In this document: one piece after another, positions 6,851 through 64,000 of the stretch
Layout of the letters: each line of letters opens with the position of its first letter
How positions within the stretch are numbered: position 1 is the stretch's first letter
Sequence record: NC_024794.1
Source: Escherichia phage vB_EcoM_PhAPEC2
Length of the DNA: 64,000 nt
Strand: one strand, 5' to 3'
Notes under the pieces: model-generated
The model's database searches: none
Told to the model about the DNA's origin: nothing
What the model saw: the letters and a program-made list of their open reading frames with translations, nothing else
Program-made: the position numbers and the translations under genes

Positions 6851-7374
6851 CATTTTAGCAAAATAAAATCAACTTGTTCTGCCAATGAACGTCTGAACAT
6901 TAATTGACAGCTTCCGAGGATGAAATCAGGTGCTTCATAGACCGCGATGTAGTATCCTTTAGCTTTCAAGAGTTCAACATCCACCTGGTCATCAAACCAT
7001 GCATAAACCGCGTCAACACTTTCAAATCCAAAATAGAACCCTTGAGCCCAATCTTCACTCAATTCAAATGTGTGCTCAATTCTATGGTATCTTAAGATAT
7101 TTTGTTCAAGGAGTTTGTCTTCATTTACTGTAGGACGATTAGGGACATTATAGTTGTCGCCGTGATGGTAGAAGTTACCTGAGATTATTCCATGTTTATC
7201 AAGGAACTCCCATGTTTCTTCAGAGTTGTCGGTGCCTGACCAACCGTATGGCGAACGAGGTTCTTTATTCCAAGAGGTTTCCCAAATTCTGACGGCTTTA
7301 CCGTCTTCGATAGCAATTCCTGGTAATGATTCACGTTGAGTACAAAAACTACGTTCTACGCGGTAAACTAACAT
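6850..7374 (-). CDS. hypothetical protein
   Basis: track ORF 6850..7431 reads through a promoter; SD GGAGAA precedes internal ATG (MLVYRVERSF). Confidence 0.6.
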   Translation of the reverse strand: MLVYRVERSFCTQRESLPGIAIEDGKAVRIWETSWNKEPRSPYGWSGTDNSEETWEFLDKHGIISGNFYHHGDNYNVPNRPTVNEDKLLEQNILRYHRIEHTFELSEDWAQGFYFGFESVDAVYAWFDDQVDVELLKAKGYYIAVYEAPDFILGSCQLMFRRSLAEQVDFILLK

Positions 7375-7394
7375 ATTATTCTCCTCTGGTTGAT

Positions 7395-7431
7395 ATGGAT
7401 ATAATACCAAAACCAGAGGAGAAGTAAACAA
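7395..7431 (-). promoter_or_regulatory. early promoter with anti-SD spacer
   Basis: minus strand GTTTAC, TTCTCCTCTGGTTTTGG, TATTAT; spacer is reverse complement of the downstream SD region. Confidence 0.55.
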
Positions 7432-7853: not shown

Positions 7854-7862
7854 AATAATTCC

Positions 7863-8318: not shown

Positions 8319-8345
8319 AATTTCTCTCTCTTTGTTTAAATTGAA

Positions 8346-8380
8346 TTCACTATACTCCATCCATCCTTGGATGTACAACA
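8346..8380 (-). promoter_or_regulatory. early promoter (cassette variant)
   Basis: minus strand TTGTAC, ATCCAAGGATGGATGGAG, TATAGT. Confidence 0.45.
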
Positions 8381-8875
8381 TTAATTAAGGATATTAACCA
8401 CAGCACTACGCGGAACTACACTAAAATCACCTGCATGAACTACGTTCAGAAGTTCAACACCGTCTTCAATCCACTGATCAGTTACCCATCCACTCACTGG
8501 ACCTGCAAACGGACGATGAATTGAAACAGCTTTACACAACAAATCAGTAGGCTCAATAGGCTTAATCAGAGTACCGTACATACAAGCGATATCCATATCA
8601 ATACAGATGTCTTTAACGGGTTCTACTTCTTCAATCAACAGTTCAAAGTCGGTGCTTGGAAGGGCGGTAGTAGAAATTGTACCATATGAATTTTTAATTT
8701 CTAAGAATAACCAAGGACCTTCAGCTTGTTTGATGAAGTTAACAATAGTGAAACTATTACCTTGAGTGGCACCTAAAATTTCACAAAACTTTTCATAAGC
8801 TCGCACTGAAGCACCGTACCAGTTGATTTGTTTTTCGTCTTTCAGGATGTAAGTAGCCGTAGTATTGATATTCAT
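8381..8875 (-). CDS. hypothetical protein, tandem paralog family member C (divergent N-terminus)
   Basis: track ORF 8381..8917; start moved to MNINTTATY because the upstream Met lies inside the promoter; C-terminal GWVTDQWIEDGVELLNVVHAGDF. Confidence 0.55.
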   Translation of the reverse strand: MNINTTATYILKDEKQINWYGASVRAYEKFCEILGATQGNSFTIVNFIKQAEGPWLFLEIKNSYGTISTTALPSTDFELLIEEVEPVKDICIDMDIACMYGTLIKPIEPTDLLCKAVSIHRPFAGPVSGWVTDQWIEDGVELLNVVHAGDFSVVPRSAVVNILN

Positions 8876-12817: not shown

Positions 12818-13399
12818 CTAAAAATTCAACATTTTCAAATGAATGATTTTGTATAATCGAGATAAAGGGTCATATTCTAAGTCTTCAATTTCCACAATCT
12901 CAAATCGAGAGATGCCTGAGACCATGTACTCTTGTTCAGATTCAATCATATCTAGGACGTCAACACGCTTTTCTTCCATAACATGCTTAGGGTTCTTTCC
13001 GGCGAGTACAATGTTAACCATGTTTTGGTAGTAATCAAAAATGAATGGAGCATTCCTGAGACTAAGAATAGTGTACGTCTGATATTCCCATCTCCCGGAG
13101 AATTGACGAGCTGTGCTGAAATCAGTTGTGAACGATGTTACTCGTCCAGGAGACCAATGGCATCCAACAGAAAGAAGGGAAAGACGTTCTACTTCTTCTG
13201 GAGTTACACCACGGTAGAGTTCTACTGGTACTGTAGAAGTCATATGCTTACGAACAAGATGGTCTAATTCATAGTGGAAATCCGGGTCTTCCTTAGAATC
13301 GGTGCAAGCCCAGAGAATGTTTTGTTCTTGGCGGGTGAATTTGCTATCAATCAGATTTGTTAGGTATTCACGTTCTTGAAGTTCAGATTGACATGTCAT
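12818..13399 (-). CDS. modB: Mod-type ADP-ribosyltransferase
   Basis: 193 aa; YRGV, FSTAR, EQEYMV motifs; paralogous to preceding ORF. Confidence 0.6.
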   Translation of the reverse strand: MTCQSELQEREYLTNLIDSKFTRQEQNILWACTDSKEDPDFHYELDHLVRKHMTSTVPVELYRGVTPEEVERLSLLSVGCHWSPGRVTSFTTDFSTARQFSGRWEYQTYTILSLRNAPFIFDYYQNMVNIVLAGKNPKHVMEEKRVDVLDMIESEQEYMVSGISRFEIVEIEDLEYDPLSRLYKIIHLKMLNF

Positions 13400-13615
13400 G
13401 ATAGACCTCCATTTAAAGATAAGCCTATCATAACACGAGAGGAGGGAATGTAAACTACTTTTTAAGCTTTCCTACTAAAGGTCCATCAGGACCAGGTTGT
13501 TCTAACATGAATAAGGATGCTTTAAAAAGCAATGTCAACCCTTTCACCATTCGATACCATGTCTCAAAGTCTTTTTCCTTGATTTCTAGTAAGAATTTCT
13601 CTTTAAATTTCTCTT

Positions 13616-19560: not shown

Positions 19561-19770
19561 TTATCGAAAATCTGCTTCGAAAACTTTCTCGTCATTAACA
19601 AATGCTTTAACCAGTGCACTGTTCACTTCAGCAAGTTGTACCGCAACCCACTCGATTTCTTCACGGTCGCCTGATAACATGATATCTTTAGTGAACATCT
19701 CACCGCTTTTAAACCAACCAATAAAAGTAACTTTAGTTAATTTGCTCATATTTCCTCGCAAAATGCCCAT
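19561..19770 (-). CDS. small protein, possibly Dmd-like
   Basis: 69 aa; FIGWFK..MFTK..VKAFVNDEKV resembles my recollection of T4 Dmd; tentative. Confidence 0.35.
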   Translation of the reverse strand: MGILRGNMSKLTKVTFIGWFKSGEMFTKDIMLSGDREEIEWVAVQLAEVNSALVKAFVNDEKVFEADFR

Positions 19771-20063
19771 TCAGCGTGATAAACTGTAGCACCTTTAGTA
19801 TCATTCATTTGAACTACGTCTACCGGAGAAATTACTCGATAGAGACGTGGTTCACCTCCATAAGAGCGTGCTGCTCGTCCTGCATAAATCTTTGCTAAAC
19901 CGATATCTTCAGTAAAGAATACACGATCCAAGTTTTTCTTACGTCCAGTTTCAGACAGAACTCCTGTTTCCTCAGGAGGACAAAGCATGTTTTCGATGTT
20001 AGCTGAACTACTTGAACCGTGATAAAAAATCTTAAATTCTGCTTTACAATCGATGGTTTTCAT
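19746..20063 (-). CDS. hypothetical protein
   Basis: 105 aa; SD GGAGAA; early promoter upstream. Confidence 0.5.
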   Translation of the reverse strand: MKTIDCKAEFKIFYHGSSSSANIENMLCPPEETGVLSETGRKKNLDRVFFTEDIGLAKIYAGRAARSYGGEPRLYRVISPVDVVQMNDTKGATVYHAEWAFCEEI

Positions 20064-20071
20064 TTTGTTCT

Positions 20072-20112
20072 CCAGTAGTTGATATGTCTATAATAACACA
20101 ACTACTGGAGAA
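20072..20112 (-). promoter_or_regulatory. early promoter with anti-SD spacer
   Basis: minus strand GTTTAC, TTCTCCAGTAGTTGTGT, TATTAT; 13-bp inverted repeat with the SD region. Confidence 0.55.
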
Positions 20113-20118
20113 GTAAAC

Positions 20119-20493
20119 TTAAAAATGTAATTTAGATACGTCTGCGTTGATTTCGTTTTGGTTCGCGTCATATGCAATTAAACGAACCGCTTTAGACGGG
20201 TCATTCAATGCATAGAAATGATGGAACATTGCTCGAACGATATCACCATTTACGAGTTCTACCTGGATAGGAGAACCTTTTTCGAGTTGGAAATGTTCAT
20301 AAGCTTTGATGGTTCGTAGATAATCAAGTTTTTGATTTCCGGCTCCAACAATTTGTACGATACGTTTGCCCATGTTTTCCATACGAGATACAATAGTTTT
20401 AGGAGCAAGAATAACGTAGGTTGCCAGTGGAGAAACTACTTCAACAGTTGTGTTTTCGGTGATTGCAGTAAAAATTGCTTGAGACATATTCAT
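20119..20493 (-). CDS. hypothetical protein
   Basis: 124 aa; SD AAGAGGAAAA. Confidence 0.5.
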   Translation of the reverse strand: MNMSQAIFTAITENTTVEVVSPLATYVILAPKTIVSRMENMGKRIVQIVGAGNQKLDYLRTIKAYEHFQLEKGSPIQVELVNGDIVRAMFHHFYALNDPSKAVRLIAYDANQNEINADVSKLHF

Positions 20494-20519
20494 AATGTTT
20501 TCCTCTTGGTTGGTGTAAG

Positions 20520-20553
20520 TACATCATATCATGCCTAGAGGAAGATGTAAACC
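20520..20553 (-). promoter_or_regulatory. early promoter
   Basis: minus strand GTTTAC, 18 nt, TATGAT. Confidence 0.45.
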
Positions 20554-42799: not shown

Positions 42800-42978
42800 G
42801 GCTTAATTTCCTTCGCAATTGAACAGAAGATACCACGGTCACAAAGCATTTCGCCAATTTCTGGATATTTGATTGAACGGTACCAAACATCCAGGCTTGA
42901 AACTCTGGTTATCTGTACTGCATTACCGTTGACAGAATAGTACTGGTCAACCTTAATTTCTTTATCTTCAATTGTCAT
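42796..42978 (-). CDS. hypothetical protein
   Basis: track ORF 42796..43098; SD AGAGGAAAA precedes MTIEDKEIKV. Confidence 0.4.
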   Translation of the reverse strand: MTIEDKEIKVDQYYSVNGNAVQITRVSSLDVWYRSIKYPEIGEMLCDRGIFCSIAKEIKP

Positions 42979-43143
42979 TTTATTTTCCTCTATAGTAGAT
43001 GGTTTAATCTTAACACATCTATTGAGGATGTAAACTGTTTTATGAAAATATTTTCGATTTGAGAGGGGCACAAGGAGATAGTGAAGTGAAGATTCCAATG
43101 GATTATATTAGAAATGAGATAAAGAAGACCAGGCGGCACCTGG

Positions 43144-51978: not shown

Positions 51979-52506
51979 TTATGCGTGAACCGTCTTTAAA
52001 CGTTCTTCAAATTTCCGAAGAGTACTAATACGTTCTGCTTTCTGTTTTGTATAGTTTGCAATACGTTCTGAAGTGAGAGCGTATCGTTCGTTTACTGTTT
52101 CTTTCATGAAGTCAGGGATTTCACGAGAAGCTTTAATTTCATCAAACTTATCGAGTACTGCCTGGTCTTCAGCGATTAAATTTTCGTACATCTCGATATC
52201 TTTCTTGATAAACTCGATATCTTCCTGGGTTACTTTGGATAAACGAGATGCTTTATCCTTTTTGTACTGCTCGTTAGTTTCACGAGACCAGAATAATGTA
52301 CGTTTTTTGTTGGTGTTTTTGTAGACTTCCACAATTCCAACTGAATCGATGATAACAATCCAATTCCAGCGAGATTTGAAAATCTGACCTCCGTCCACGG
52401 TAATCTCGTTACCATAAGCAACGTCATTAAAGAACTTGCTTTGTGCTTCAGATTTAAATTTACCGTCGTTATAATTTACCAGGTTGAAAATATCTTTAGC
52501 GTTCAT
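51979..52506 (-). CDS. hypothetical protein
   Basis: 175 aa; SD GGAGGT. Confidence 0.55.
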   Translation of the reverse strand: MNAKDIFNLVNYNDGKFKSEAQSKFFNDVAYGNEITVDGGQIFKSRWNWIVIIDSVGIVEVYKNTNKKRTLFWSRETNEQYKKDKASRLSKVTQEDIEFIKKDIEMYENLIAEDQAVLDKFDEIKASREIPDFMKETVNERYALTSERIANYTKQKAERISTLRKFEERLKTVHA

Positions 52507-52514
52507 GTTTTACC

Positions 52515-52558
52515 TCCAGTAGTTGATAGGTCTATAATAACATAACCATAGACCTTGT
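52515..52558 (-). promoter_or_regulatory. early promoter
   Basis: minus strand GTTTAC, 17 nt, TATTAT followed by AGACCTATCAA. Confidence 0.5.
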
Positions 52559-52564
52559 AAACAA

Positions 52565-55832: not shown

Positions 55833-56378
55833 TTATTTCAAAGTTGGTATAATAGAATCAAGATAAGCTTTAAGAGCAACTGCTTCATCTTTGTCTAATG
55901 TAATGATATGTTGACGAAGGTCATCAATTTGACGAATAACTACGACATCACCATCTTCATAAGAAGGATTAACTCCTAGGACTGTTGTATAGTCAGGGCG
56001 GTCCTGATTTGTAATAAAAGCATTACGGCATTTAGCCCATTGAAGTTTGGCCTTTTTGGCTGTTTCAGATTCCATTAATTCTTTCACCTTAGTGACGAAT
56101 GTTTTCCAATTATTAATAGAAAAACATTCATCTTCGGTTTCGATATTGGCCGCATTGTAAAGACCAGGATAAAAACGAACTTGGAGGTCTTCACCAATGT
56201 TAATTACCTCTCGACGACGTCCAGACTGATTGAGTTTCAAAATCTTGTCCAGTTCCATAGGAAGAATAGTAGCAGCATCATCTTCTTGTGTCAGAACGTA
56301 CACATAACCACGTTTTTCAATACATAAATCACCGAACAGCTCGGTTGTTTCAATTACGGTTTTCATATTATTCACCAA
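55833..56378 (-). CDS. hypothetical protein
   Basis: 181-aa ORF; start may be internal Met (MKTVIETT). Confidence 0.5.
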   Translation of the reverse strand: MVNNMKTVIETTELFGDLCIEKRGYVYVLTQEDDAATILPMELDKILKLNQSGRRREVINIGEDLQVRFYPGLYNAANIETEDECFSINNWKTFVTKVKELMESETAKKAKLQWAKCRNAFITNQDRPDYTTVLGVNPSYEDGDVVVIRQIDDLRQHIITLDKDEAVALKAYLDSIIPTLK

Positions 56379-56646
56379 TTAAAGTTTCAACAAAATTCAC
56401 CAAAGCATTCTGGCAAGCGTCAACCTGATTTCTATAAAAATTAAATAATATCCATCAATTTATTAGCTTGTTCACGGGTCATTTTACCATACTCGTTTCA
56501 ATAAGATTCACTATGCCGTTTACCATGTTATAAGTAAACATCGGATAATTGTATTGTACTACAACATAAGCGATAAGCAAAAGTTTCATTTTGTTCTCCA
56601 TTTGTTTTGGTAGGATTACTATATCATAGTCCTACCAAGACGTAAA

Positions 56647-56937
56647 CTACCGATTATGTTTTAAAATACTATAAAGAGCTTCTACTTGGCTTGCATCCAG
56701 GTAAATAACATCATCATCTTGCTCAATGGAAATTCCGCCAGTATTACCTTCAACGAAATTACATTCGCATACTTCAACAGTGCGATATACATCACCAACT
56801 GGATGCTCAGGCTCCAGAACAATCACACCATCTTCAGAACAACCGCTTGGGTCATATAACATTACAGTTTCCTCGCTAACCATGAAAAGAATAAACCAAT
56901 TAAAACAGGTCCTACAGCCATTGTTAACCAAGCCCAA
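56647..56937 (-). CDS. hypothetical protein
   Basis: 96-aa ORF. Confidence 0.4.
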   Translation of the reverse strand: MGLVNNGCRTCFNWFILFMVSEETVMLYDPSGCSEDGVIVLEPEHPVGDVYRTVEVCECNFVEGNTGGISIEQDDDVIYLDASQVEALYSILKHNR

Positions 56938-57125
56938 GGTTCAAGATAATAAATCATCTCATGCTCCTGTGCCATCAGTTTCTTGGTTCACGTTTAAAAA
57001 TTTCATCATGCATTGATTGACAACCAACACAATATATCACCACCATATCATCTTCAGCGCTTTCAGGTAAAAGTTCAAGTACGCCGTCTTCAGATTTTCC
57101 AGTATAATCGTAAAGCATAATATCC

Positions 57126-57305
57126 TCACATAATCTCGTTAACATACATTTGCAATTCGGTGTGAGCTTCGGCCATCTTTTTCATAGCTCTGTTAATGTC
57201 GATGTCTCCATCTTCGCAACCATGAGCATTTTCCCAATCAGATACCGCATTAGCGTACTCTTCAATCAAAAACATTAACTTAGAAATTTTTTCTTTACGT
57301 GACAT
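57126..57305 (-). CDS. hypothetical protein
   Basis: track ORF 57126..57344 reads through a promoter; SD GAGGAGAA precedes MSRKEKIS. Confidence 0.45.
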   Translation of the reverse strand: MSRKEKISKLMFLIEEYANAVSDWENAHGCEDGDIDINRAMKKMAEAHTELQMYVNEIM

Positions 57306-57307
57306 AA

Positions 57308-57357
57308 CGTTCTCCTCTAGTAAGTAAAGACTACTATAACACAACCTGTGGAGAAGT
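57308..57357 (-). promoter_or_regulatory. early promoter with anti-SD spacer
   Basis: minus strand GTTTAC, TTCTCCACAGGTTGTGT, TATAGT. Confidence 0.5.
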
Positions 57358-57369
57358 AAACTGCTAAAT

Positions 57370-57402
57370 GCAAAAAAGCCCCAACCTTTCGGAAGGGGCT
57401 AG
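57370..57402 (-). terminator. intrinsic terminator
   Basis: minus strand AGCCCC..GAAAGG..GGGGCU hairpin followed by UUUUUU. Confidence 0.6.
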
Positions 57403-57406
57403 TAAA

Positions 57407-57709
57407 TTAGATAGATGTAGGCTCTAATTTTATTTTCATGAACTCGGCAAATTGTCTGGCAGTTTTTATGCCTTGTTCCTGGCATTCAAATGCATCATCA
57501 CAGGGGCTATTTTTGTAATGCTTTGCCATATAGTTATAAAATTTTTCAGAATTCTCAACATTTTGAATTTCGAACAAAGTATATACGTTTTTAATCCCTG
57601 ATTCCATAAAGTTATCAAAGTACGGGTCAACATATGCAGTGCCAACAATAGGAGTCGTTGCTGCAAAAAACCCCAGCATCGCCACAATGGCTATCGCTCT
57701 TAAGGCCAT
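57407..57709 (-). CDS. secreted protein (signal peptide)
   Basis: 100 aa; N-terminal MALRAIAIVAMLGFFAATTPIVGTA; terminator downstream. Confidence 0.5.
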   Translation of the reverse strand: MALRAIAIVAMLGFFAATTPIVGTAYVDPYFDNFMESGIKNVYTLFEIQNVENSEKFYNYMAKHYKNSPCDDAFECQEQGIKTARQFAEFMKIKLEPTSI

Positions 57710-57721
57710 ATAGGCCTCCTG

Positions 57722-57934
57722 TTAATTTTGGCCAGTATTTATTTTTCGCCTTTGGACGGCCTTAACATCTGCGAGGTATTTTTCCAGCTTGCGCTTGCGT
57801 GTATAATCAGCTTTAGAACCAGTTTGACGGATATCCTCGTTTAAATGAGAAATAGAATGTCCTAATTCTCTTCGGATTTCATCCAATTGGGTTACAGTAA
57901 GATTACGAAGTTGTCTTTCGTTTAATTGCTGCAT
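57722..57934 (-). CDS. hypothetical protein
   Basis: 70 aa; TATAAATA-like element upstream. Confidence 0.45.
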
Positions 57935-57961
57935 ATATACCTCTTGGTTAGATATTAGTAT

Positions 57962-58543
57962 TTATAACAACCCTGTCAAATCATTCCAATGCTTCCGGCA
58001 TAATGACACATATCTATCGGTATCACCAATTTCAATTTGACTGCCATCTGTAATTGGAAGTCCGTCTTCCGTGACTCTAGCTACCATTGTGGCCTTTTTA
58101 CCACAATGACAGACACCTTTAAGTTCAACAAGCTTATCGGCAATAGCCATTAATGCTTGAGAACCTTCAAATAGATTACCTTTAAAATCTGTTCGTAGAC
58201 CATATGCCATTACCGGCACATTGTATACGTCAACAATACGACTAAGTTGATACACCTTTTCAGTAGTTAAGAACTGAGCTTCGTCAACAAATACACAGTG
58301 AATATCCTTTTGCGCTGCAGCCCATTTATAGAATTCAAAGATATCCATGTCTTTTGTAATTATATTGGCATCCTGACGAATACCAATACGAGAGACTATT
58401 TCACCTTTTGAATCACGAGTATCAATAGCCGGTTTAAGAACTAATACACCCATGCCACGTTCTTTATAGTTGTGTGCGGCAGTAAGTAATGAAGCAGACT
58501 TACCAGCGTTCATAGCGGCATATGTAAAAATTAAACTAGCCAT
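57962..58543 (-). CDS. tk: thymidine kinase
   Basis: 193 aa; P-loop AAMNAGKS, zinc site CHCGKKA...CRKH. Confidence 0.9.
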   Translation of the reverse strand: MASLIFTYAAMNAGKSASLLTAAHNYKERGMGVLVLKPAIDTRDSKGEIVSRIGIRQDANIITKDMDIFEFYKWAAAQKDIHCVFVDEAQFLTTEKVYQLSRIVDVYNVPVMAYGLRTDFKGNLFEGSQALMAIADKLVELKGVCHCGKKATMVARVTEDGLPITDGSQIEIGDTDRYVSLCRKHWNDLTGLL

Positions 58544-58552
58544 AAGAGTCCC

Positions 58553-58735
58553 TTATAGTGAATTCACGTAGTCAATGAGTTCTTGTTCTTTCCTGTCAAA
58601 TGATTCCATCAATGCTTGATATTCTTCATCTGTTAAAGGAGCATATTCATCGTACGCATTGGTGGCTGCTTGCTCATCCAATAGGTCATGGATAAGTTCG
58701 AACAGTTTAGTTTTCTCTTCTTTAGTCAATTTCAT
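58553..58735 (-). CDS. hypothetical acidic protein
   Basis: 60 aa. Confidence 0.45.
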   Translation of the reverse strand: MKLTKEEKTKLFELIHDLLDEQAATNAYDEYAPLTDEEYQALMESFDRKEQELIDYVNSL

Positions 58736-59226
58736 TTAGGTTCCCAATCGACAATCACAATTTCTAGTTTAGTGGAATACGTATCTAAAATCTCTTCAAT
58801 GACATCCCAGTTTCCACCACCAATACCTGCACCAATTCTTGGCATATAAATTACAGGCTTTGTTATCTTATTCTTTCCGAATTCATTTAATTCTATTATA
58901 CAATTCATTAAAGCAGAGTACTCAAAATTAGGTCCAGGCTCAAACTGTGTATAAAGATTAAAGCAATAAGCTTTATGGGTCTTAAAATATTTTTCATAAA
59001 CCGAATAAGTCCCGAGTTTAGACTCGTCTCCGAATTCGGTTTGAAGTTTATCGGCTTCTAAAATTTTTGGATAAGCCTTTGCTAATTGTCCTGCCACACC
59101 AGCGCCCATTGTATGAAAACAATTACACCCATGAGCAATATTATTACCTTTAGAAAACAGGGCGACAATATCGCCCTTGATATAGTTTTTAATCACTTGC
59201 TGCAAGTCCTCTAGTATAAGAGTCAA
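58732..59226 (-). CDS. macro-domain-like protein (possible ADP-ribose binding/hydrolase)
   Basis: 164 aa; NNIAHGCNCFHTMGAGVAGQL resembles macro-domain glycine-rich loop; from motif memory. Confidence 0.45.
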   Translation of the reverse strand: MTLILEDLQQVIKNYIKGDIVALFSKGNNIAHGCNCFHTMGAGVAGQLAKAYPKILEADKLQTEFGDESKLGTYSVYEKYFKTHKAYCFNLYTQFEPGPNFEYSALMNCIIELNEFGKNKITKPVIYMPRIGAGIGGGNWDVIEEILDTYSTKLEIVIVDWEPK

Positions 59227-59536
59227 CTAGGCGGTCTACCATAGAATTGCATGCTGCCTTATCTTTAGGTTCCGCCACCGAGCATTCTAATATTTGCCAT
59301 TTTTTATGATATCGTTTAATTAAGGTAGACGCCTTGAACCTACTAGACGCCCCATCTTTTTCTCCGTCTTTATACGCATATAATAATTTTTGTGAAAAAT
59401 CTACTTTACACTCTTGACTTTTACCACAATAATCAGACGCCGTTCTGTTTGTATACTCCGTTACATCAGTATATGTAGTATTAGCAAAAGCGTTAAATGA
59501 AACCAAGCCAACTATTAAAGCCAACATTTTGGTCAT
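59189..59536 (-). CDS. secreted Cys-containing protein
   Basis: 115 aa; signal peptide MTKMLALIVGLVSFNAFA; ATGA-coupled. Confidence 0.5.
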   Translation of the reverse strand: MTKMLALIVGLVSFNAFANTTYTDVTEYTNRTASDYCGKSQECKVDFSQKLLYAYKDGEKDGASSRFKASTLIKRYHKKWQILECSVAEPKDKAACNSMVDRLVDSYTRGLAASD

Positions 59537-60075
59537 TCTTTTATTTCCAGTAGTTTATTTGATTTAAGGTAATTAGCCTTTTCTAGGACTTCAGAAGCAT
59601 ATTTACTTCCAGCACTTGTCTTCCATCCTGCATTATATGAGGATATAGCTTTTCTTATATCCCCATTATGTATATTTAACCAATAAGAAAATTCGATATA
59701 AGCCCATCTGGCTGAATTAGACCGCTTAGATAGCATTTTCTTAATTTGGGCATCAGTCATATTATAACCAAGCTGGTTAATTCTTGCCCTCATTGTTGGT
59801 AGATAATTTTGGAACATTCCATACGCATGGTGACCTTTCTTATCTTTAAGATTAATACCGGCAGATGATTCCTGCCATAGTATTGCGGCCATTATGTATC
59901 CAAGTCCTTTCTTATGCATATTTTCATGCGTTTTAAATTTTCCGTCCTTAGAAAACTGTTCCCCAAACTGATAAGCATAATTCAAGTTATCGAGTTGGAC
60001 ATTACTAAAAGTATGCTCGGAGCTATGTGCTGATAATGAAAGAGCAAATAGACCAGCGAGTAGTGCTTTTCTCAT
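59533..60075 (-). CDS. secreted lytic transglycosylase-like protein (SLT domain)
   Basis: 180 aa; signal peptide; SLT motifs QESSAG, AYGMFQ, SYNAGW. Confidence 0.6.
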   Translation of the reverse strand: MRKALLAGLFALSLSAHSSEHTFSNVQLDNLNYAYQFGEQFSKDGKFKTHENMHKKGLGYIMAAILWQESSAGINLKDKKGHHAYGMFQNYLPTMRARINQLGYNMTDAQIKKMLSKRSNSARWAYIEFSYWLNIHNGDIRKAISSYNAGWKTSAGSKYASEVLEKANYLKSNKLLEIKE

Positions 60076-60083
60076 GTTTACCT

Positions 60084-60542
60084 CTAGATTTTAATCACTG
60101 CTTTAGAAGCTTTTCCTGGTAGTCGTTTATTGTTAATAATAGCCATTCTGCATTGAAGAGTCTTCATTTTGAATGCTGGATTTTCGCGACAAACTGTAAG
60201 TCCTAACCAAAGATTTCCATCAGTTATTTCTAAACGGCCTGGGCGATATTCGACACCTTCGACAAAATCTTCATCAACATCTGGACGTGCCGGCATTGAT
60301 AAAAATTCTGTAACTTCTTTAACATGATTTTTTACTTTACGAAATAATTCAAAAACGTAATTCTCATCTATTTCTCTTTGGATGGCACGATCTAAGAGAT
60401 GTTGAGAATACTTGATATGAAAGCCTGGTAGTCCAAGAGACTTTGCAGCATCTTTTATACCGGCATTGATTTGACGAAACTCCGTTTCAAAGATTCGACG
60501 GAGTTTATTGCGGCGGATAAAAACGTCTGAATTGATAGTCAT
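60084..60542 (-). CDS. regB: RegB endoribonuclease
   Basis: 152 aa; near-identical to remembered T4 RegB (FIRRNKLRR..EITDGNLWLG..CRMAIIN). Confidence 0.88.
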   Translation of the reverse strand: MTINSDVFIRRNKLRRIFETEFRQINAGIKDAAKSLGLPGFHIKYSQHLLDRAIQREIDENYVFELFRKVKNHVKEVTEFLSMPARPDVDEDFVEGVEYRPGRLEITDGNLWLGLTVCRENPAFKMKTLQCRMAIINNKRLPGKASKAVIKI

Positions 60543-60545
60543 TTT

Positions 60546-60598
60546 GATTTCTCCTCTAGTTGACAGGTCTATAGTAACACAACTAGAGGAGAAGTAAA
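60546..60598 (-). promoter_or_regulatory. early promoter of regB with anti-SD spacer
   Basis: minus strand GTTTAC, TTCTCCTCTAGTTGTGT, TACTAT; 13-bp perfect inverted repeat with the SD-containing leader. Confidence 0.55.
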
Positions 60599-60603
60599 CT
60601 ACT

Positions 60604-60819
60604 TTATTGATAAAATGGAGTTAAAGCCCAAGATTCTTTAGATACCATATTGGCGAAATGCCTCATCTCTTCGATTTGGCGACGACGCTGGTCAGCATAG
60701 TCTTCTTCGCCTTCTTCCTTACAATCTTCAAGGTCTTCTTCAAGATACTTTAAGTATTCACTACAAATTTTGTTGACCTTTTCTTGAAAGTCCAATAACC
60801 CAGTAATACTAGAAGCCAT
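60604..60819 (-). CDS. hypothetical acidic protein
   Basis: 71 aa. Confidence 0.5.
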   Translation of the reverse strand: MASSITGLLDFQEKVNKICSEYLKYLEEDLEDCKEEGEEDYADQRRRQIEEMRHFANMVSKESWALTPFYQ

Positions 60820-61064
60820 TAGTATTTTTCCTCAGGTCGAAATACCGCGCGACAAGCCCACATACTAGCTTCCTTTAGACGCTCTTTAGCGCAGTTAAGT
60901 TGGGACAAAGCCGTCAGAGCTTCAGGAGTATTTGCTGATAATGCTTCTTCTGCCAGGGCGTCCAGAATAAGTCCTAAACGAACTTCGGCATCTTTAATAG
61001 CGTTCACTTTACCGATTTTATCATCGGTATGTGGCTTGTAGCCTTTGATGTCTTCAATCGACAT
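60819..61064 (-). CDS. hypothetical protein
   Basis: track ORF 60819..61232; internal Met (MSIEDIKG) overlaps upstream stop. Confidence 0.45.
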   Translation of the reverse strand: MSIEDIKGYKPHTDDKIGKVNAIKDAEVRLGLILDALAEEALSANTPEALTALSQLNCAKERLKEASMWACRAVFRPEEKY

Positions 61065-61278
61065 AAGGAATTTCCTCATCGGTGGCAAGGTCATATTCGA
61101 CCAATTGGATAGGCTCATTAATACCATATCCACGTACAGTGATATCGGTTGTCGGATATTTTCCAGTAATATCACCCGTTCTAAATGCTTCAATGAATGA
61201 TTGCTCGCCTGAGCAACTAAACCAGGCGGCAAAACATTTTAAAACATCTTCAGACCCTTCTATAACCAATTTAGCCAT
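61054..61278 (-). CDS. hypothetical protein
   Basis: 74 aa; TAATG-coupled to GrcA-like gene. Confidence 0.45.
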   Translation of the reverse strand: MAKLVIEGSEDVLKCFAAWFSCSGEQSFIEAFRTGDITGKYPTTDITVRGYGINEPIQLVEYDLATDEEIPYVD

Positions 61279-61640
61279 TATAGACTCTCAGTAAAGGTAC
61301 GAGCGATAACGTCGCGCTGTTGTTCCGGAGTCAGAGAGTTAAAGCGAACTGCATATCCGGATACACGGATGGTCAGCTGCGGATATTTTTCCGGATGCTT
61401 AACTGCATCTTCCAGAGTTTCACGACGCAGAACGTTAACGTTCAGGTGTTGACCACCTTCAATTTTAACTTTAGGTTGATGTTCAATTTCAATTTCACGA
61501 GCATGCAAACCGTAGAAAATTTCTGGGTCTACAATAGCGTCTTCTTTAAAAGTCTTAGAGACAATAATCCGGGCTTGAGTACCGTCTTCAAAATAAATAG
61601 TGCCTTTATGTGCACCTTCAAGAATTTGATATGCTTTCAT
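61278..61640 (-). CDS. autonomous glycyl-radical cofactor (GrcA/YfiD-like)
   Basis: 120 aa; C-terminus [31 protein letters not shown] is the glycyl-radical signature of PFL/GrcA. Confidence 0.8.
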
Positions 61641-61646
61641 ATAACC

Positions 61647-61955
61647 TCAATTAGAAAATAAATTTATCCAAGATTTTTCTTTAATCAAAAATGGGTCGGA
61701 ATTAAACGCCATTAAACTTTGAGTGATTAATCCCTTAAATGGCCCATCAATAAATTCCATTTTGAAATGCGGAATACTAGTCATCATCCGTGCATTAGGA
61801 GCAGTACAAAGAACCTGCTGCCCGGCGAACGGACCTTTAGTCAAACGATATCGTTTAGGTTTAAAATGGTAAATCTCGTAATTTTCTACAAGAGCCCTTT
61901 TATTGCATACTGGGCTGTTATAACAATACTCAAAAACTTCAATAGTGGTCATCAT
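61647..61955 (-). CDS. hypothetical protein
   Basis: 102 aa. Confidence 0.5.
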   Translation of the reverse strand: MMTTIEVFEYCYNSPVCNKRALVENYEIYHFKPKRYRLTKGPFAGQQVLCTAPNARMMTSIPHFKMEFIDGPFKGLITQSLMAFNSDPFLIKEKSWINLFSN

Positions 61956-62491
61956 TGCATTCCAATCACAAAAAATTGAGGACGAGCATTACCGCCGATG
62001 CAATATTTGCTTTTGCAGCAGTGCTGTACTGTTTTAATGTGGACATTGTAAATCTTATCCATATCGGGAGCTTTAATAGGCTCGTCAATTATATACAGAA
62101 TACGAGAAAGCGTTAATCCACGGAATTTAGAACCTTCATTGCCAATAAAACTACGAACAGAATCAGTAAATAAACGGAATCGAATATCATCGCTAGAATA
62201 ACGAGAAAATTCTTTTTCAATGTTGCCAGCAGAAATTTTAGCATAAGCTGAAGTATTAGAAAGAACAATAACTGTTCCACCGTCGTGCAGCCAATTAACA
62301 GCAAAATTAGTTACTGCGGTCGATTTACCTGATTGTCTGCCGCCGTCTAAACGAAGTGTACAGTACTGCTTGAGTACGTCTTCAAATGGTGGGACATAAC
62401 CATTCTTACAAATTTCTTCTACTCTAGCATCAGAATGGTGTGTAAAAGCATTCATCAGGGATAGATAAGGTCCGGTTAAAAATGTTCTCAT
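61952..62491 (-). CDS. hypothetical protein with P-loop-like motif
   Basis: 179 aa; GGRQSGKST. Confidence 0.5.
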   Translation of the reverse strand: MRTFLTGPYLSLMNAFTHHSDARVEEICKNGYVPPFEDVLKQYCTLRLDGGRQSGKSTAVTNFAVNWLHDGGTVIVLSNTSAYAKISAGNIEKEFSRYSSDDIRFRLFTDSVRSFIGNEGSKFRGLTLSRILYIIDEPIKAPDMDKIYNVHIKTVQHCCKSKYCIGGNARPQFFVIGMQ

Positions 62492-62670
62492 TTAGTTTCT
62501 CTTTTAGATTGGGGCCATTCCGTGGCGCATGAATTGTCCATTTCTGTATTTACCCATTACCGCACTTGGGCTCGACCTTATTACAGGTTGGCGGGAATCC
62601 CTCATAGAATCATGAGGTCCAGGTTGTTCCCATATTATTTAAATGTAAATAGGTCTAAGTATTAGCTTTA

Positions 62671-63249
62671 TTAATTACCACGGGCCGCATTAGCAACGGC
62701 GTAAGCATACTGAACATTAGCGTCCTTAAACGTACCTTTAGAGGTATCTATTTCTGCCTTAAAGCCGCCTTTAGCCATAACATCGGCAAATTCTTTACGG
62801 AAAGCCATTGCATCAAGACCTTTCCATGATGATTTATGCTTGGCAAATTCAAGACCGGCGTAGTTGACAGCTTTAGCCAATTTATTATCAATGACCCATT
62901 TACCGGCTTTAGGCACAAACTTCGGGCCTTTTTGTTTAGAGAACAGTTTTAAATTCCAGCGACGAAGATCACTATCGGCTTTAACAAAAGCTGCGTCTAA
63001 GTTACTAGCAACAACATCTTCAATATGAGCAAATTTAAGTCCGTCAACTTCAATATTTAGATCGTTACGCCAACGTAGTCCTTCCCAAGCGAAGGCTTTA
63101 AAATCAGAAGCTTTTGTGGCTAGATATCGTTCAAGTGGAGCAGTTTTAGGGTCAAAGCCGTTTCCGCCACGATAATTCCACTCGTCCTTATTAATGCCTT
63201 GAGCTTTTCCTGCAAAGGCCTCGGCGATAAATTCTTTATACGTTTTCAT
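62671..63249 (-). CDS. capsid internal protein (IP-type, capsid-targeting leader)
   Basis: 192 aa; N-terminus MKTYKEFIAEA matches the T4 IP capsid-targeting sequence MKTYQEFIAEA. Confidence 0.6.
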   Translation of the reverse strand: MKTYKEFIAEAFAGKAQGINKDEWNYRGGNGFDPKTAPLERYLATKASDFKAFAWEGLRWRNDLNIEVDGLKFAHIEDVVASNLDAAFVKADSDLRRWNLKLFSKQKGPKFVPKAGKWVIDNKLAKAVNYAGLEFAKHKSSWKGLDAMAFRKEFADVMAKGGFKAEIDTSKGTFKDANVQYAYAVANAARGN

Positions 63250-63312
63250 TTTTGTTTCCTTGTTTGTTTTGATAGAGTAATTATACCATATTAATACTTA
63301 AGCGTAAACAAT

Positions 63313-63429
63313 TTAAGCTTTATCGCCAGAAATAATTCCGAAGTTGTTAAAATCGTATCCAATATCGTCAACATCTACTTTAGGACCTTTGGCATCTGCT
63401 TCAATGATAAATTCTTGATACATTTTCAT
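63313..63429 (-). CDS. micro-ORF with capsid-targeting leader (putative internal peptide)
   Basis: 38 aa not in track: MKMYQEFIIEADAKGPKVDVDDIGYDFNNFGIISGDKA; SD TAAGGA upstream. Confidence 0.45.
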   Translation of the reverse strand: MKMYQEFIIEADAKGPKVDVDDIGYDFNNFGIISGDKA

Positions 63430-63435
63430 TTTTCC

Positions 63436-63849
63436 TTAGTAAATTGATTTACCATAGTATTTGTACCAAGTCGGACGTTGAGCAATTTTTTCATCTAAGC
63501 GTGCTTGACTTATCGCAATGGACGCTTCGGACGGGACATAATTATTACGAAATTCGGCAGGGATGTCGGAAATATCCTGGACTGTCGTGTCCTTGATTTT
63601 GAAACCACGTTTCAAACATTCAGCGATTAGCTCGATTTGTCGTAAACGTAAAAATTCGAGTTTGTCGTAAAAGAATGTTACGTGACCTGTGCCTAAGATA
63701 AATGTTGGAGAGATTTTAAAATCCTTTACACGTTTACCATTTTGAACATGTTTACGGACTGCACCGAATACACGAGGTAATTCGCGATACTCAGCCATAA
63801 GATGTTGGTCGGCCAGTTCAGAAACAAGTGTTAAATTGATACGAGTCAT
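63436..63849 (-). CDS. denV: endonuclease V (pyrimidine-dimer DNA glycosylase)
   Basis: track ORF 63436..63861 (TTG artefact start); [31 protein letters not shown] matches T4 DenV; SD GGAGGA. Confidence 0.9.
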
Positions 63850-63851
63850 AA

Positions 63852-63905
63852 TTTCCTCCAAGTAGTTGATGAATGTATAGTATCAAAACTCTTGGAGGAA
63901 GTAAA
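63852..63905 (-). promoter_or_regulatory. early promoter of denV with anti-SD spacer
   Basis: minus strand GTTTAC, TTCCTCCAAGAGTTTTGA, TACTAT; inverted repeat with leader CTTGGAGGAA. Confidence 0.5.
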
Positions 63906-63906
63906 C

Positions 63907-64000
63907 ACTATTTTTCTGAAGCGCCTGAAATATATTTTTCAAGACGTTGTTTCATTAGCGAGCCGTTCTTAGCGATTTCTTCTGGCTTATCGCACATACG
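63907..64000 (-). CDS. 3' end of a gene whose start lies beyond the window
   Basis: open frame running off the right edge, ending ...ISGASEK then TAG. Confidence 0.35.

What the first reader, a model, noticed from the sequence alone, without database searches (positions are those of the whole stretch)
60546..60598. Early promoters whose spacer is the reverse complement of the downstream ribosome-binding site
At five or more sites (about 7395, 20072, 57308, 60546, 63852) the -35 GTTTAC is followed by TTCTCC(T/A)... and this spacer is an 8-13-bp inverted repeat of the SD-containing leader, with the -10 and start site in the loop. Transcripts started at the proximal promoter lack the 5' arm and are translatable; read-through transcripts would fold and hide the SD. 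T4 uses this logic at a few late genes (e, soc); here it is a repeated early-promoter design.
Basis: partly seen in the sequence, partly recalled or inferred. Interest (0 to 1): 0.55.

Follow-up and report, generated by a model that had tools for sequence, protein, structure and literature searches.

The report
Early promoters nested in SD-masking hairpins
In this RB69-like T4-type phage, several early promoters sit inside a hairpin whose far arm is the next gene's ribosome-binding site, so RNA reading through from upstream should be untranslatable while RNA started at the promoter itself is translatable; this is a conserved, little-described early-gene version of a trick T4 is known to use at late genes.

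Summary
The window is the first 64 kb of an RB69-like (Mosigvirus) phage. On the minus strand, four predicted early promoters have a spacer that is a 10-14-bp reverse complement of the downstream Shine-Dalgarno (SD) leader. These are regB at 60599, denV at 63906, motB.2 at 7429 and the RB69ORF040c homologue/dmd at 20118. The -10 and the inferred start site lie in the loop. They include the only three perfect inverted repeats of at least 12 nt with an 8-45-nt loop in the window. The fifth named site (57308) shares only TTCTCC/GGAGAA, is not significantly structured, and sits just after a terminator. modB (13455) uses a second geometry that masks the AUG.

Opening the SD is predicted to cost 12.6-15.7 kcal/mol in read-through RNA against 2.0-3.6 in promoter-proximal RNA. 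Arms covary among paralogues and among regB, denV and motB.2 orthologues. T4 itself has the design at about 8 early promoters, with G·U pairs that favour the sense RNA. No hairpin has a U-tract.

It is not specific to this phage. It is a new variant of known kinds: T4 e/soc hairpins, PeSLs and sigma-54 anti-SD insulators. Nothing has been tested experimentally.

The parts
60594..60599 (-). -35 hexamer GTTTAC of the regB early promoter
   Evidence: Corresponds to RB69 Pe:61376, predicted by Nolan 2006.
60580..60593 (-). 5' arm (anti-SD) UUCUCCUCUAGUUG, the first 14 nt of the 17-nt promoter spacer
60571..60576 (-). -10 hexamer TACTAT, preceded by TGT; lies in the hairpin loop. The inferred start site is G at about 60564.
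   Evidence: The start site is inferred from sigma-70 spacing and from the end of the Nolan 2006 promoter model.
60549..60562 (-). 3' arm CAACUAGAGGAGAA containing the regB Shine-Dalgarno (GAGGAG, 60551-60556)
   Evidence: Opening the SD costs 15.3 kcal/mol in read-through RNA against 2.8 in proximal RNA.
60084..60542 (-). regB coding sequence (start ATG 60540-60542), the gene gated by the hairpin
60604..60606 (-). Stop codon TAA of the upstream 71-aa ORF, 4 nt before the -35. No terminator lies between it and the promoter.
7372..7429 (-). motB.2 promoter-hairpin. -35 at 7424-7429; 5' arm 7411-7423 (UUCUCCUCUGGUU); -10 at 7401-7406; start site about 7394; 3' arm 7379-7391 (AACCAGAGGAGAA); ATG 7372-7374.
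   Evidence: Corresponds to RB69 Pe:7443.
20061..20118 (-). Promoter-hairpin of the RB69ORF040c homologue (105 aa, followed by a dmd-like ORF). -35 at 20113-20118; 5' arm 20099-20112; -10 at 20090-20095; start site about 20083; 3' arm 20068-20081; ATG 20061-20063. The GUUU of the -35 also pairs with AAAU at the AUG.
   Evidence: Corresponds to RB69 Pe:20537.
63847..63906 (-). denV promoter-hairpin. -35 at 63901-63906; 5' arm 63885-63900 (core UUCCUCCAAG, 63891-63900); -10 at 63877-63882; start site about 63870; 3' arm 63853-63868 (core CUUGGAGGAA, 63853-63862); ATG 63847-63849.
   Evidence: Corresponds to RB69 Pe:64934.
13392..13455 (-). modB promoter-hairpin with a second geometry. The 5' arm (13422-13437) is TGT plus the -10 TATGAT plus AGGCU, all upstream of the inferred start site at about 13420. 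The 3' arm (13392-13407) covers the end of the SD and the AUG (13397-13399).
   Evidence: (-22.5 kcal/mol, z = -3.95).
57303..57361 (-). Decayed or chimeric copy: only UUCUCC/GGAGAA pairs. An intrinsic terminator lies directly upstream.
   Evidence: z = +0.48; its leader pairs with the regB 5' arm at -20.8 kcal/mol against -10.2 with its own spacer; TransTerm terminator mobD.2a<--rI.
20491..20552 (-). Weak version (UUCCUCU/AGAGGAA, 7 bp) directly after the gene 41 terminator
42976..43035 (-). Weak split version (UCCUC/GAGGA plus UAGAUG/CAUCUA)
   Evidence: -12.1 kcal/mol, z = -2.17.

Best explanation
These are early sigma-70-type promoters built inside an RNA hairpin that masks the translation start of the gene they serve.

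What the sequence shows: the 5' arm is the promoter spacer (at modB, the -10 region), and the 3' arm is the Shine-Dalgarno leader.

Inferred steps:
1. RNA polymerase starting at the promoter begins about 2 nt before the 3' arm. Its transcript therefore lacks the 5' arm, has a free SD and is translated.
2. RNA arriving from upstream promoters, early or middle, carries both arms and folds into a hairpin of about -20 kcal/mol. The SD is hidden, so that RNA does not make the protein.
3. The 5' arm begins 7-11 nt after the upstream ORF's stop codon. From established ribosome footprint sizes (recalled from memory, not tested here), that is just beyond the reach of a terminating ribosome, so upstream translation should not open the hairpin.
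4. The result is gene-specific insulation. RegB, DenV, MotB.2, ModB and the ORF040c/Dmd unit would be made only from their own immediate-early transcripts.
5. Because several exposed leaders fit the RegB/S1 target (GGAGRAYARAA), synthesis could then be ended by RegB cleavage. That would give a short pulse of expression.
For: Anatomy:
- Four spacer-to-SD stems of 10-14 bp enclose the -10 and the start site.
- All five promoters, including modB, are in the published RB69 early-promoter predictions. The motB.2 model ends exactly at my inferred start site.

Chance:
-, as given under the observation check.

Predicted effect:
- The SD core opens at 12.6-15.7 kcal/mol in read-through RNA against 2.0-3.6 in proximal RNA. 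The other 15 promoters need 0.3-7.9.
- For the whole initiation region, the read-through minus proximal difference is 10.5-15.3 kcal/mol at these sites.

Selection on pairing:
- Each 5' arm pairs best with its own leader. It ranks first in row and column for all four window sites and for 5 of 7 T4 sites, with the other two ranking first in either row or column (self mean -20.1 kcal/mol, cross mean -12.2).
- regB orthologues from 43 viral contigs show at least 10 different arm sequences. Self duplexes average -18.6 against -12.1 for cross pairs, and self ranks first in 11 of 15 rows.
- On an ungapped 9-sequence alignment, 4 of 14 pairs have changes on both sides and none varies on one side only. 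The covariation score is 0.175 against 0.057 for shuffles (0 of 500 reach it), and all slid controls are 0.044 or lower.

RNA level, sense strand:
- T4 copies contain 2-3 G·U pairs each. The sense fold is -19 to -24 kcal/mol and the antisense -11 to -18.

The SD or AUG is the constant target:
- denV orthologues use either a spacer-to-SD stem or a stem between the -10/start-site region and the SD plus AUG. modB uses the latter in both this phage and T4.
- motB.2 keeps the design in T4 and in RB69-type phages despite a different gene order.

Link to read-through:
- Strong stems occur only where the upstream stop codon is within 7 nt of the -35. That holds for 9 of 28 promoters with a gap of 12 nt or less and 0 of 19 with a larger gap (Fisher p = 0.0067).
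- Decayed 6-9-bp versions sit right after intrinsic terminators, and distant regB orthologues with an upstream terminator lack the stem.
- Published predictions place a strong RB69 middle promoter (Pm:64182) upstream of regB, with no predicted terminator between them.

In vivo hint:
- RegB cuts single-stranded GGAG only. In T4 it cleaves the SDs of regB and motB.2, and moderately that of nrdC.8 (PMC1702504; PMC3014915).

Precedents:
- T4 e, soc, 49 and I-TevI (PMC3014915 section 29).
- Sigma-54 anti-SD insulators (bioRxiv 10.1101/086108).
Against: - There are no experimental data for this phage. Start sites are inferred from spacing, and the presence and amount of read-through RNA are inferred from the absence of predicted terminators.
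- Thermodynamic folding ignores co-transcriptional kinetics, protein S1 and ribosomes on the upstream ORF.
- About 19 promoters that also abut an upstream ORF have no such stem. The device is therefore gene-specific, and the reason for the choice of genes is conjecture.
- modB has a weak, 5-bp predicted terminator upstream yet keeps a strong hairpin.
- At T4 alt.-3 the upstream stop codon lies in the loop, so ribosomes would cross the 5' arm there.
- Some regB orthologues lack the stem although no upstream terminator is evident (L103-105, L108-109).
- The window's own regB leader (GGAGAAAUCAA) fits the RegB/S1 consensus poorly, which weakens the pulse idea for that gene.
Confidence: 0.7

Rival explanations
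1. PeSL-type transcription terminator or attenuator. The stem-loop stops or thins transcription arriving from upstream, so that each promoter resets transcript levels. This is the role Arbiol et al. 2010 proposed for promoter-early stem-loops.
For: - The composite of early promoter plus stem-loop plus SD is what defines a PeSL (PMC2839356 and PMC4122927).
- An RB49 PeSL stem-loop cut lacZ expression in a transcriptional fusion as strongly as rrnB T1.
- An untranslated masked cistron could also invite Rho-dependent termination. That would be an indirect attenuator effect (inference).
Against: - None of the window hairpins is followed by a U-run; the sequences after the stems are AAAUCAAAAUG, UAAUAUG, CAAAAUG and AUUAUG.
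- The consensus terminator scan run over 56000-64000, which covers the regB, denV and 57361 sites, calls none of them.
- None of the four spacer-to-SD hairpins is in the published TransTerm list for RB69, whereas true terminators next to other promoters are.
- Loops are 17-21 nt, which is unfavourable for intrinsic termination.
- A terminator would not need the SD or AUG as its 3' arm, yet that is the one constant across two geometries and many lineages.
Confidence: 0.1
2. DNA-level element. The repeated cassette and its palindrome would serve recombination (modular shuffling, mini-circles), cruciform formation, or binding of a dimeric repressor at the -10, rather than RNA folding.
For: - The four copies share about 45 nt (GTTTACTTCTCC...GTTGTGTTAYTATAGAC.TATCAAC...GGAGAA), enough for homologous exchange.
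- Apparent chimeras exist. The window 57361 leader matches the regB 3' arm, the 52562 leader resembles the 20118 arm, and L199 carries the 20118-type 5' arm with an unrelated leader.
- motB.2 has moved together with its promoter between T4 and RB69.
- PeSL crossovers were mapped between the -10 and the SD.
Against: - The arm interiors differ between copies but stay complementary, which a protein operator would not require.
- T4 copies have G·U pairs, which are mismatches in duplex or cruciform DNA and make the opposite strand 5-10 kcal/mol weaker.
- Loops of 17-21 nt disfavour cruciform extrusion.
- Recombination does not need an inverted repeat.
- Recombination may well occur as a by-product, so this rival is not exclusive of the best explanation.
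Confidence: 0.07
3. Nuclease shield or stabiliser. The hairpin hides the GGAG from RegB, or blocks 3' exonucleases, so that long polycistronic RNAs survive. The loss of translation would be incidental.
For: - RegB cuts only single-stranded GGAG/GGAU, and secondary structure protects against it (PMC3014915; PMC1702504).
- The SDs here are GGAG-type, and two leaders fit the RegB/S1 consensus well (20118 GGAGAACAAAA; 7429 GGAGAAUAAUA).
- The hairpins sit 7-11 nt after the upstream stop codon, a typical place for a 3' stabiliser.
Against: - A masked SD cannot be translated either, so protection and silencing come together and cannot be separated by sequence.
- The modB and many denV versions mask the AUG rather than the GGAG.
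- Phages could avoid RegB more simply by not using GGAG.
Confidence: 0.08
4. Activation device. The hairpin is opened by ribosomes finishing the upstream ORF (translational coupling), or is cut by RNase III. Read-through RNA would then be translated, but only in a coupled or processed form.
For: - The upstream stop codons lie 0-4 nt before the -35, close to the hairpin.
- At T4 alt.-3 the upstream ORF ends inside the loop.
- Perfect 14-bp stems are within reach of RNase III (from general knowledge, not tested).
Against: - The main stems start 7-11 nt after the stop codon, at or beyond the roughly 5-9 nt that a terminating ribosome covers or unwinds. This rests on established footprint data recalled from memory. 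The CUCC/GGAG pairs lie deeper still.
- RNase III cutting within a 14-bp stem would sever the SD from the ORF.
- No such processing is reported in the T4 post-transcription review.
Confidence: 0.05

Closest known systems
T4 hairpins that sequester the translation start of e (lysozyme), soc, 49 and I-TevI on long early or middle transcripts, with a promoter nested inside (PMC3014915 section 29)
   Same: The logic is the same. A hairpin hides the SD or AUG on read-through RNA, and a promoter inside the hairpin yields transcripts that lack the 5' arm and are translated. For gene e the difference is 100-fold.
   Different: In those cases the nested promoter is a late one (TATAAATA), so the switch delays expression until late. 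Here the nested promoter is an early sigma-70-type one, with the anti-SD arm in the -35/-10 spacer, so the switch confines expression to the gene's own early transcripts. None of the genes here is in the published list.
PeSL, promoter-early stem-loop cassettes of T4-like phages (Arbiol 2010, PMC2839356; Comeau 2014, PMC4122927)
   Same: Both are composites of a strong early promoter, a stem-loop, an SD and a start codon in short intergenic spaces. Both are repeated in the genome and show signs of recombination between copies.
   Different: PeSL stem-loops were described as G/C-run hairpins between or over the promoter boxes (RB49) or just upstream of the promoter (T4/PST), and were interpreted as terminators or attenuators and as recombination sites. 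Pairing with the SD is not mentioned. Here the 3' arm is the SD itself and there is no U-tract.
Insulator sequences in sigma-54 promoters: CT-rich anti-SD motifs that silence translation of read-through transcripts (Levy et al. 2017, bioRxiv 10.1101/086108)
   Same: A promoter encodes an anti-SD element upstream of its own start site. This element pairs with the downstream SD only in RNA coming from upstream.
   Different: Those are bacterial sigma-54 promoters with short 3-5-nt motifs within 25 nt of the SD, found in E. coli by an oligo library. Here they are phage sigma-70-type early promoters with 10-15-bp stems that covary and are conserved gene by gene.
RegB/S1 cleavage sites in T4 early SDs (GGAGRAYARAA; Durand 2006, PMC1702504)
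   Same: The 3' arms carry GGAG-type SDs followed by A-rich tracts. In T4, regB, motB.2 and nrdC.8, which have the hairpin design, are RegB substrates.
   Different: RegB sites are defined as single-stranded 11-mers. The hairpin context on read-through RNA is not part of that description.

Membership tests
T4-type SD-sequestering hairpin with nested promoter (e/soc/49/I-TevI class) | A stable RNA helix includes the SD and/or AUG on transcripts from upstream | tested here: met
   Predicted only. Hairpins are -20 to -24 kcal/mol (z = -3.4 to -5.8). Opening the SD costs 12.6-15.7 kcal/mol.
T4-type SD-sequestering hairpin with nested promoter (e/soc/49/I-TevI class) | A promoter lies within the hairpin so that its transcripts lack the 5' arm | tested here: met
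   By position. The -10 and the inferred start site are in the loop, and the 3' arm begins at about +3. The promoters are in the Nolan 2006 list. Start sites have not been mapped.
T4-type SD-sequestering hairpin with nested promoter (e/soc/49/I-TevI class) | The nested promoter is a late promoter (TATAAATA), giving late-only translation | tested here: not met
   The promoters are GTTTAC-N17/18-TAnnAT early type.
T4-type SD-sequestering hairpin with nested promoter (e/soc/49/I-TevI class) | Translation demonstrated to differ between long and short transcripts | not testable with these tools
   Needs reporter fusions or toeprinting.
PeSL (promoter-early stem-loop) | Strong sigma-70-like early promoter with an SD and start codon at the 3' end, in an intergenic space | tested here: met
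PeSL (promoter-early stem-loop) | Stable stem-loop within or next to the promoter | tested here: met
PeSL (promoter-early stem-loop) | The stem-loop acts as a transcription terminator or attenuator | tested here: not met
   Tested by sequence criteria only. There is no U-tract. The consensus scan of 56000-64000 does not call the regB or denV hairpin, and none of the four spacer-to-SD hairpins is in the published TransTerm list for RB69. Function itself was not assayed.
PeSL (promoter-early stem-loop) | Copies mediate recombination or modular shuffling of flanked genes | tested here: inconclusive
   Chimeric half-sites occur at 57361, 52562 and L199, and motB.2 has been relocated with its promoter. 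These fit the idea, but no breakpoint was mapped.
Promoter-encoded anti-SD insulators (sigma-54, Levy 2017) | A CT-rich anti-SD motif inside the promoter pairs with the downstream SD in read-through RNA | tested here: met
   UUCUCC or CCUCC sits directly after the -35 and pairs with GGAGAA or GGAGG.
Promoter-encoded anti-SD insulators (sigma-54, Levy 2017) | Sigma-54 promoter with a short 3-5-nt motif within 25 nt of the SD | tested here: not met
   These are sigma-70-type promoters with 10-14-bp arms 17-21 nt apart.
Rfam RNA families | Match to any curated covariance model | tested here: not met
   No hits at gathering threshold in the whole window.

The most novel reading that the evidence does not exclude
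Across T4-like phages, a defined subset of early genes is wired as an 'immediate-early only' pulse generator. The subset includes regB, modB, alc, denV, motB.2 and others, several of them regulators or enzymes that I recall, from memory and untested here, as harmful when over-expressed.

The early promoter is nested in an SD- or AUG-masking hairpin, so protein comes only from promoter-proximal RNA made in the first minutes. The exposed GGAG leader is then cut by RegB. All later read-through RNA, from early or middle promoters, stays translationally silent.

On this reading, the stem-loops of many PeSL cassettes are translational insulators rather than terminators. Recombination between cassettes would be tolerated only where pairing is restored or where a terminator makes pairing unnecessary.
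Probability: 0.4. Interest if true: 0.65.

Novelty: new variant of a known kind. Interest (0 to 1): 0.5.

Why it matters
If true, this gives a simple cis-encoded rule for why some T4-family genes behave as strictly immediate-early although they are continuously transcribed as parts of longer RNAs. It adds a third layer, alongside promoter shut-off and RegB cleavage, to the still incompletely explained early shut-off. It also reinterprets the stem-loops of PeSL cassettes.

The design is compact (about 60 nt) and self-insulating, with promoter and ribosome-binding site in one module. That is of practical interest for synthetic operons and phage engineering, because inserting or deleting genes next to such promoters would change translation as well as transcription. 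Annotation benefits too, for example in choosing start codons such as that of T4 ndd.4.

The hypothesis is directly testable with a handful of reporter constructs and existing 5'-end and long-read RNA methods.

Tried and rejected
- **Sequence-only alignment of 16 regB leaders.** MAFFT followed by RNAalifold gave no consensus structure, because indels shift the arms. I replaced it with self-versus-cross duplex matrices and an ungapped 9-sequence alignment for formal pair counts.
- **My own terminator detector.** It missed the terminators before 57361 and 20552. The resulting terminator-versus-stem test was not significant (0 of 9 against 11 of 49, p = 0.18). The distance from stop codon to -35 gave a cleaner test (p = 0.0067), and the published TransTerm list covered the terminators.
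- **First census.** It paired only the -35 plus spacer with the leader, and so missed the modB-type geometry. I redid it with everything upstream of the start site.
- **Palindromic operator idea.** Rejected because the arms covary rather than being conserved.
- **Intrinsic terminator idea.** Rejected for lack of a U-tract.
- **Rfam.** Nothing found.
- **Literature.** Five successful searches found no description of early promoters whose spacer pairs with the SD; two further attempts failed on a term-length error. The T4 genome review (PMC150520) is not held, and the older T4 papers I recall (Liebig and Rüger 1989; Sanson and Uzan 1993) were not looked up. Prior mention there cannot be excluded.
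- **Viral-contig scan for GTTTACTTCTCC-N8-TGKTA.** It returned mostly chance hits outside T4-like phages and only a few extra informative copies.
Full report
**What the window is.** A 6-kb stretch of the window (58000-64000) is 96-97% identical to Mosigvirus (RB69-like) phages such as p000v and phiE142, and 6200-8600 matches RB69 at the same coordinates. Gene order follows T4 and RB69 from the rIIA end to denV, with nearly all genes on the minus strand. The finding therefore has to be read on the minus strand.

**The observation.** On the minus strand, 60599-60540 reads GTTTAC TTCTCCTCTAGTTG tgt TACTAT agacctgt CAACTAGAGGAGAA atcaaa ATG, and the ATG starts regB.
- The first 14 nt of the 17-nt spacer are a perfect reverse complement of the leader that contains the SD GAGGAG.
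- The -10 and the position 7 nt after it, taken as the start site, lie in the 17-nt stretch between the arms.

The same layout occurs at three other sites:
- 7429: 13 bp, gene motB.2.
- 20118: 14 bp plus a 4-bp outer helix that reaches the AUG. The gene is the RB69ORF040c homologue, followed by a dmd-like ORF.
- 63906: 10 bp plus 4 bp across a bulge, gene denV.

**More than chance?** Yes.
- GTTTACTTCTCC occurs four times against 0.46 expected.
- The three perfect repeats are the only perfect inverted repeats with arms of at least 12 nt and loops of 8-45 nt in 64 kb. Simulations gave a mean of 0.18 and a maximum of 2 in 200.
- The four hairpins fold at -20.0 to -23.7 kcal/mol with z = -3.35 to -5.83. 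Site 57361 gives -10.5 kcal/mol and z = +0.48.
- Among 22 early-type promoters with an SD and start codon on this strand, these four stand apart, with spacer-leader duplexes of -19.8 to -23.5 kcal/mol. Sites 20552 (-12.8) and 43035 (-10.8) are weaker versions, and the remaining 16, including 57361 at -10.2, lie between -2.5 and -10.2.
- All five promoters discussed here, including modB, are in the published HMM predictions of RB69 early promoters: Pe:7443, Pe:13466, Pe:20537, Pe:61376 and Pe:64934. The motB.2 model ends exactly at my inferred start site.

**A second geometry.** At modB (-35 at 13455) the 5' arm is TGT plus the -10 TATGAT plus AGGCU, all upstream of the inferred start. It pairs with GGUCUAUCAUGACAUG, which covers the AUG. 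The fold is -22.5 kcal/mol with z = -3.95. T4 modB is built the same way.

**Predicted consequence.**
- Forcing the SD core open costs 12.6-15.7 kcal/mol in RNA that begins 120 nt upstream, against 2.0-3.6 kcal/mol in RNA that begins at the inferred start. The other 15 promoters need 0.3-7.9 kcal/mol in read-through RNA.
- For the whole initiation region (-13 to +3), the read-through minus proximal difference is 10.5-15.3 kcal/mol at 20118, 7429, 13455 and 60599. denV was too close to the window end to be scored.

**Is pairing under selection?** Three lines of evidence say so.
1. *Paralogues.* Every strong 5' arm pairs best with its own leader although all share CUCC/GGAG (self mean -20.1 kcal/mol, cross mean -12.2).
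2. *Orthologues.*
   - RegB homologues in 43 viral contigs show the same design with at least ten different arm sequences. Examples are UUUUCCUCUUGACUG/CAGUUAAGAGGAGAA in T4, AUCUCCUUUUAGU/ACUAAAAGGAGAU, AUCCUCAUUUG/CAAAUGAGGAU and CUCCUCUUG/CAAGAGGAG. Self duplexes average -18.6 kcal/mol against -12.1 for cross pairs, and self ranks first in 11 of 15 rows.
   - denV homologues use either a spacer-to-SD stem or a stem between the -10/start-site region and the SD plus AUG.
   - motB.2 keeps the design in T4 and in RB69-type phages although it sits at a different place in the gene order.
3. *Formal pair counts.* On an ungapped 9-sequence alignment, 4 of 14 pairs change on both sides and none varies on one side only. 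The covariation score is 0.175 against 0.057 in shuffles (0 of 500 reach it), and slid controls are 0.044 or lower. The sample is small.

**RNA or DNA, and which strand?** The window's stems are almost pure Watson-Crick and give no answer. T4 does. A census of T4 found the same design at ndd.4, alc, alt.-3, denV, regB, nrdC.8 and motB.2 (duplexes of -17.4 to -22.4 kcal/mol), and the redone census added modB. In the seven spacer-type sites there are 2-3 G·U pairs in six of them. These make the sense-strand fold 5-10 kcal/mol more stable than the antisense fold. That points to sense RNA, and argues against a cruciform or an operator.

**Link to read-through.**
- At the four spacer-to-SD sites the upstream ORF's stop codon lies 0-4 nt before the -35.
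- Over the window and T4 together, strong stems occur at 9 of 28 promoters whose upstream stop is within 12 nt, and at 0 of 19 with a larger gap (p = 0.0067).
- The decayed versions (window 57361 and 20552; T4 mrh.2 and 30.8) all sit directly after intrinsic terminators, which are also in the published RB69 terminator list.
- The most distant regB orthologues, which have a terminator upstream, have no stem.
- Published predictions place a strong RB69 middle promoter (Pm:64182) about 2.9 kb upstream of regB with no predicted terminator between them. My scan also found only weak 5-pair candidates there.
- One counter-example exists: a weak 5-bp predicted terminator precedes modB.

**Not a terminator.** No hairpin is followed by a U-run. 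The consensus scan I ran over 56000-64000 flags neither the regB nor the denV hairpin, and TransTerm in the published RB69 analysis lists none of the four spacer-to-SD hairpins. Rfam has no match in the window.

**Mechanism proposed.**
- *Shown by the sequence:* the anatomy, its non-random nature, covariation and the strand bias.
- *Inferred:* transcription starts in the loop; read-through RNA exists and folds; the folded SD blocks 30S binding.
- *From established knowledge, recalled from memory:* a terminating ribosome covers or unwinds only about 5-9 nt past the stop codon. The arms begin 7-11 nt past it, so upstream translation should not open the stem.
- *Precedent:* T4 e, soc, 49 and I-TevI work this way with nested late promoters, with a 100-fold effect for e (PMC3014915).
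- *RegB link:* RegB cuts only single-stranded GGAG, prefers GGAGRAYARAA, and cleaves the T4 regB and motB.2 SDs, and moderately that of nrdC.8, in vivo (PMC1702504; PMC3014915). This fits a pool of promoter-proximal RNAs with free SDs and suggests a pulse of synthesis. The window's 20118 and 7429 leaders fit that consensus, but its regB leader fits poorly.

**Comparison with what is known.**
- The logic equals the T4 late-gene hairpins, but the nested promoter is an early one.
- The composite equals a PeSL (PMC2839356, PMC4122927). However, PeSL stem-loops were described elsewhere in the promoter and read as terminators or recombination sites, with no mention of SD pairing.
- The concept of a promoter-encoded anti-SD insulator was shown for sigma-54 promoters (bioRxiv 10.1101/086108).
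- The T4 post-transcription review lists no early-promoter cases, and Nolan 2006 mentions no stem. Five literature searches found no description. Older T4 papers are outside the library, so prior mention cannot be excluded.

**Verdict.** The design is family-wide and gene-specific rather than peculiar to this phage, and it is a new variant of known kinds. Interest is moderate.

Noticed in passing
window 49898 and 8935 (minus strand): Two early promoters share an identical -35 to -10 block (GTTTAC AACCAAGGATGGTTGGAG TATAAT) and similar leaders. This looks like a repeated promoter cassette.
   Followed up: no
window 56647, 18807, 41908, 42333, 52562; T4 57990, 20612, 73939, 65799, 129918: Many other early promoters carry 6-11-bp inverted repeats that bracket the -10 but stop short of the SD, for example TTGGTAGGA/TCCTACCAA at 56604-56641. 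They do not mask translation in my folds, and their role is unexplained.
   Followed up: partly
window 57303-57361 and 52500-52562; locus L199: Half-sites. The 57361 leader pairs with the regB 5' arm (-20.8 kcal/mol) far better than with its own spacer (-10.2). The 52562 leader resembles the 20118 3' arm but has an unrelated spacer. L199 has the 20118-type 5' arm with an unrelated leader. These look like recombinants with a crossover in the conserved -10/start-site core.
   Followed up: partly
window 19746-20063: The 105-aa ORF behind promoter 20118 (RB69ORF040c homologue) overlaps the start of a dmd-like ORF. It is conserved in 50 viral contigs, including phages larger than 230 kb. No 105-aa counterpart is annotated between genes 41 and 61 in T4. 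Its function is unknown.
   Followed up: no
T4 NC_000866 166749-166807 (locus L074): The annotated ndd.4 start (166764) is the ATG inside ATGGAGG, which is the SD and 3' arm. The in-frame ATG 15 nt downstream is the one with proper SD spacing.
   Followed up: no
T4 136336 and 123093 (locus L073): The alc and alt.-3 promoters have the same 18-nt spacer and near-identical leaders. At alt.-3 the upstream ORF (alt.-2) ends inside the hairpin loop.
   Followed up: no
window 7434-8381: Two adjacent MotB-like paralogues (139 and 172 aa) lie upstream of motB.2. The order of motB, motB.1 and motB.2 differs from T4.
   Followed up: no
loci L089-L092, L097, L110, L111 (regB) and L132 (denV): Some lineages nest a second G+C-rich hairpin tightly round the -10 (for example GGGCCAUGAUACUAUGGCCC) inside a shorter outer anti-SD/SD helix. 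This resembles the RB49-type PeSL stem-loops.
   Followed up: no
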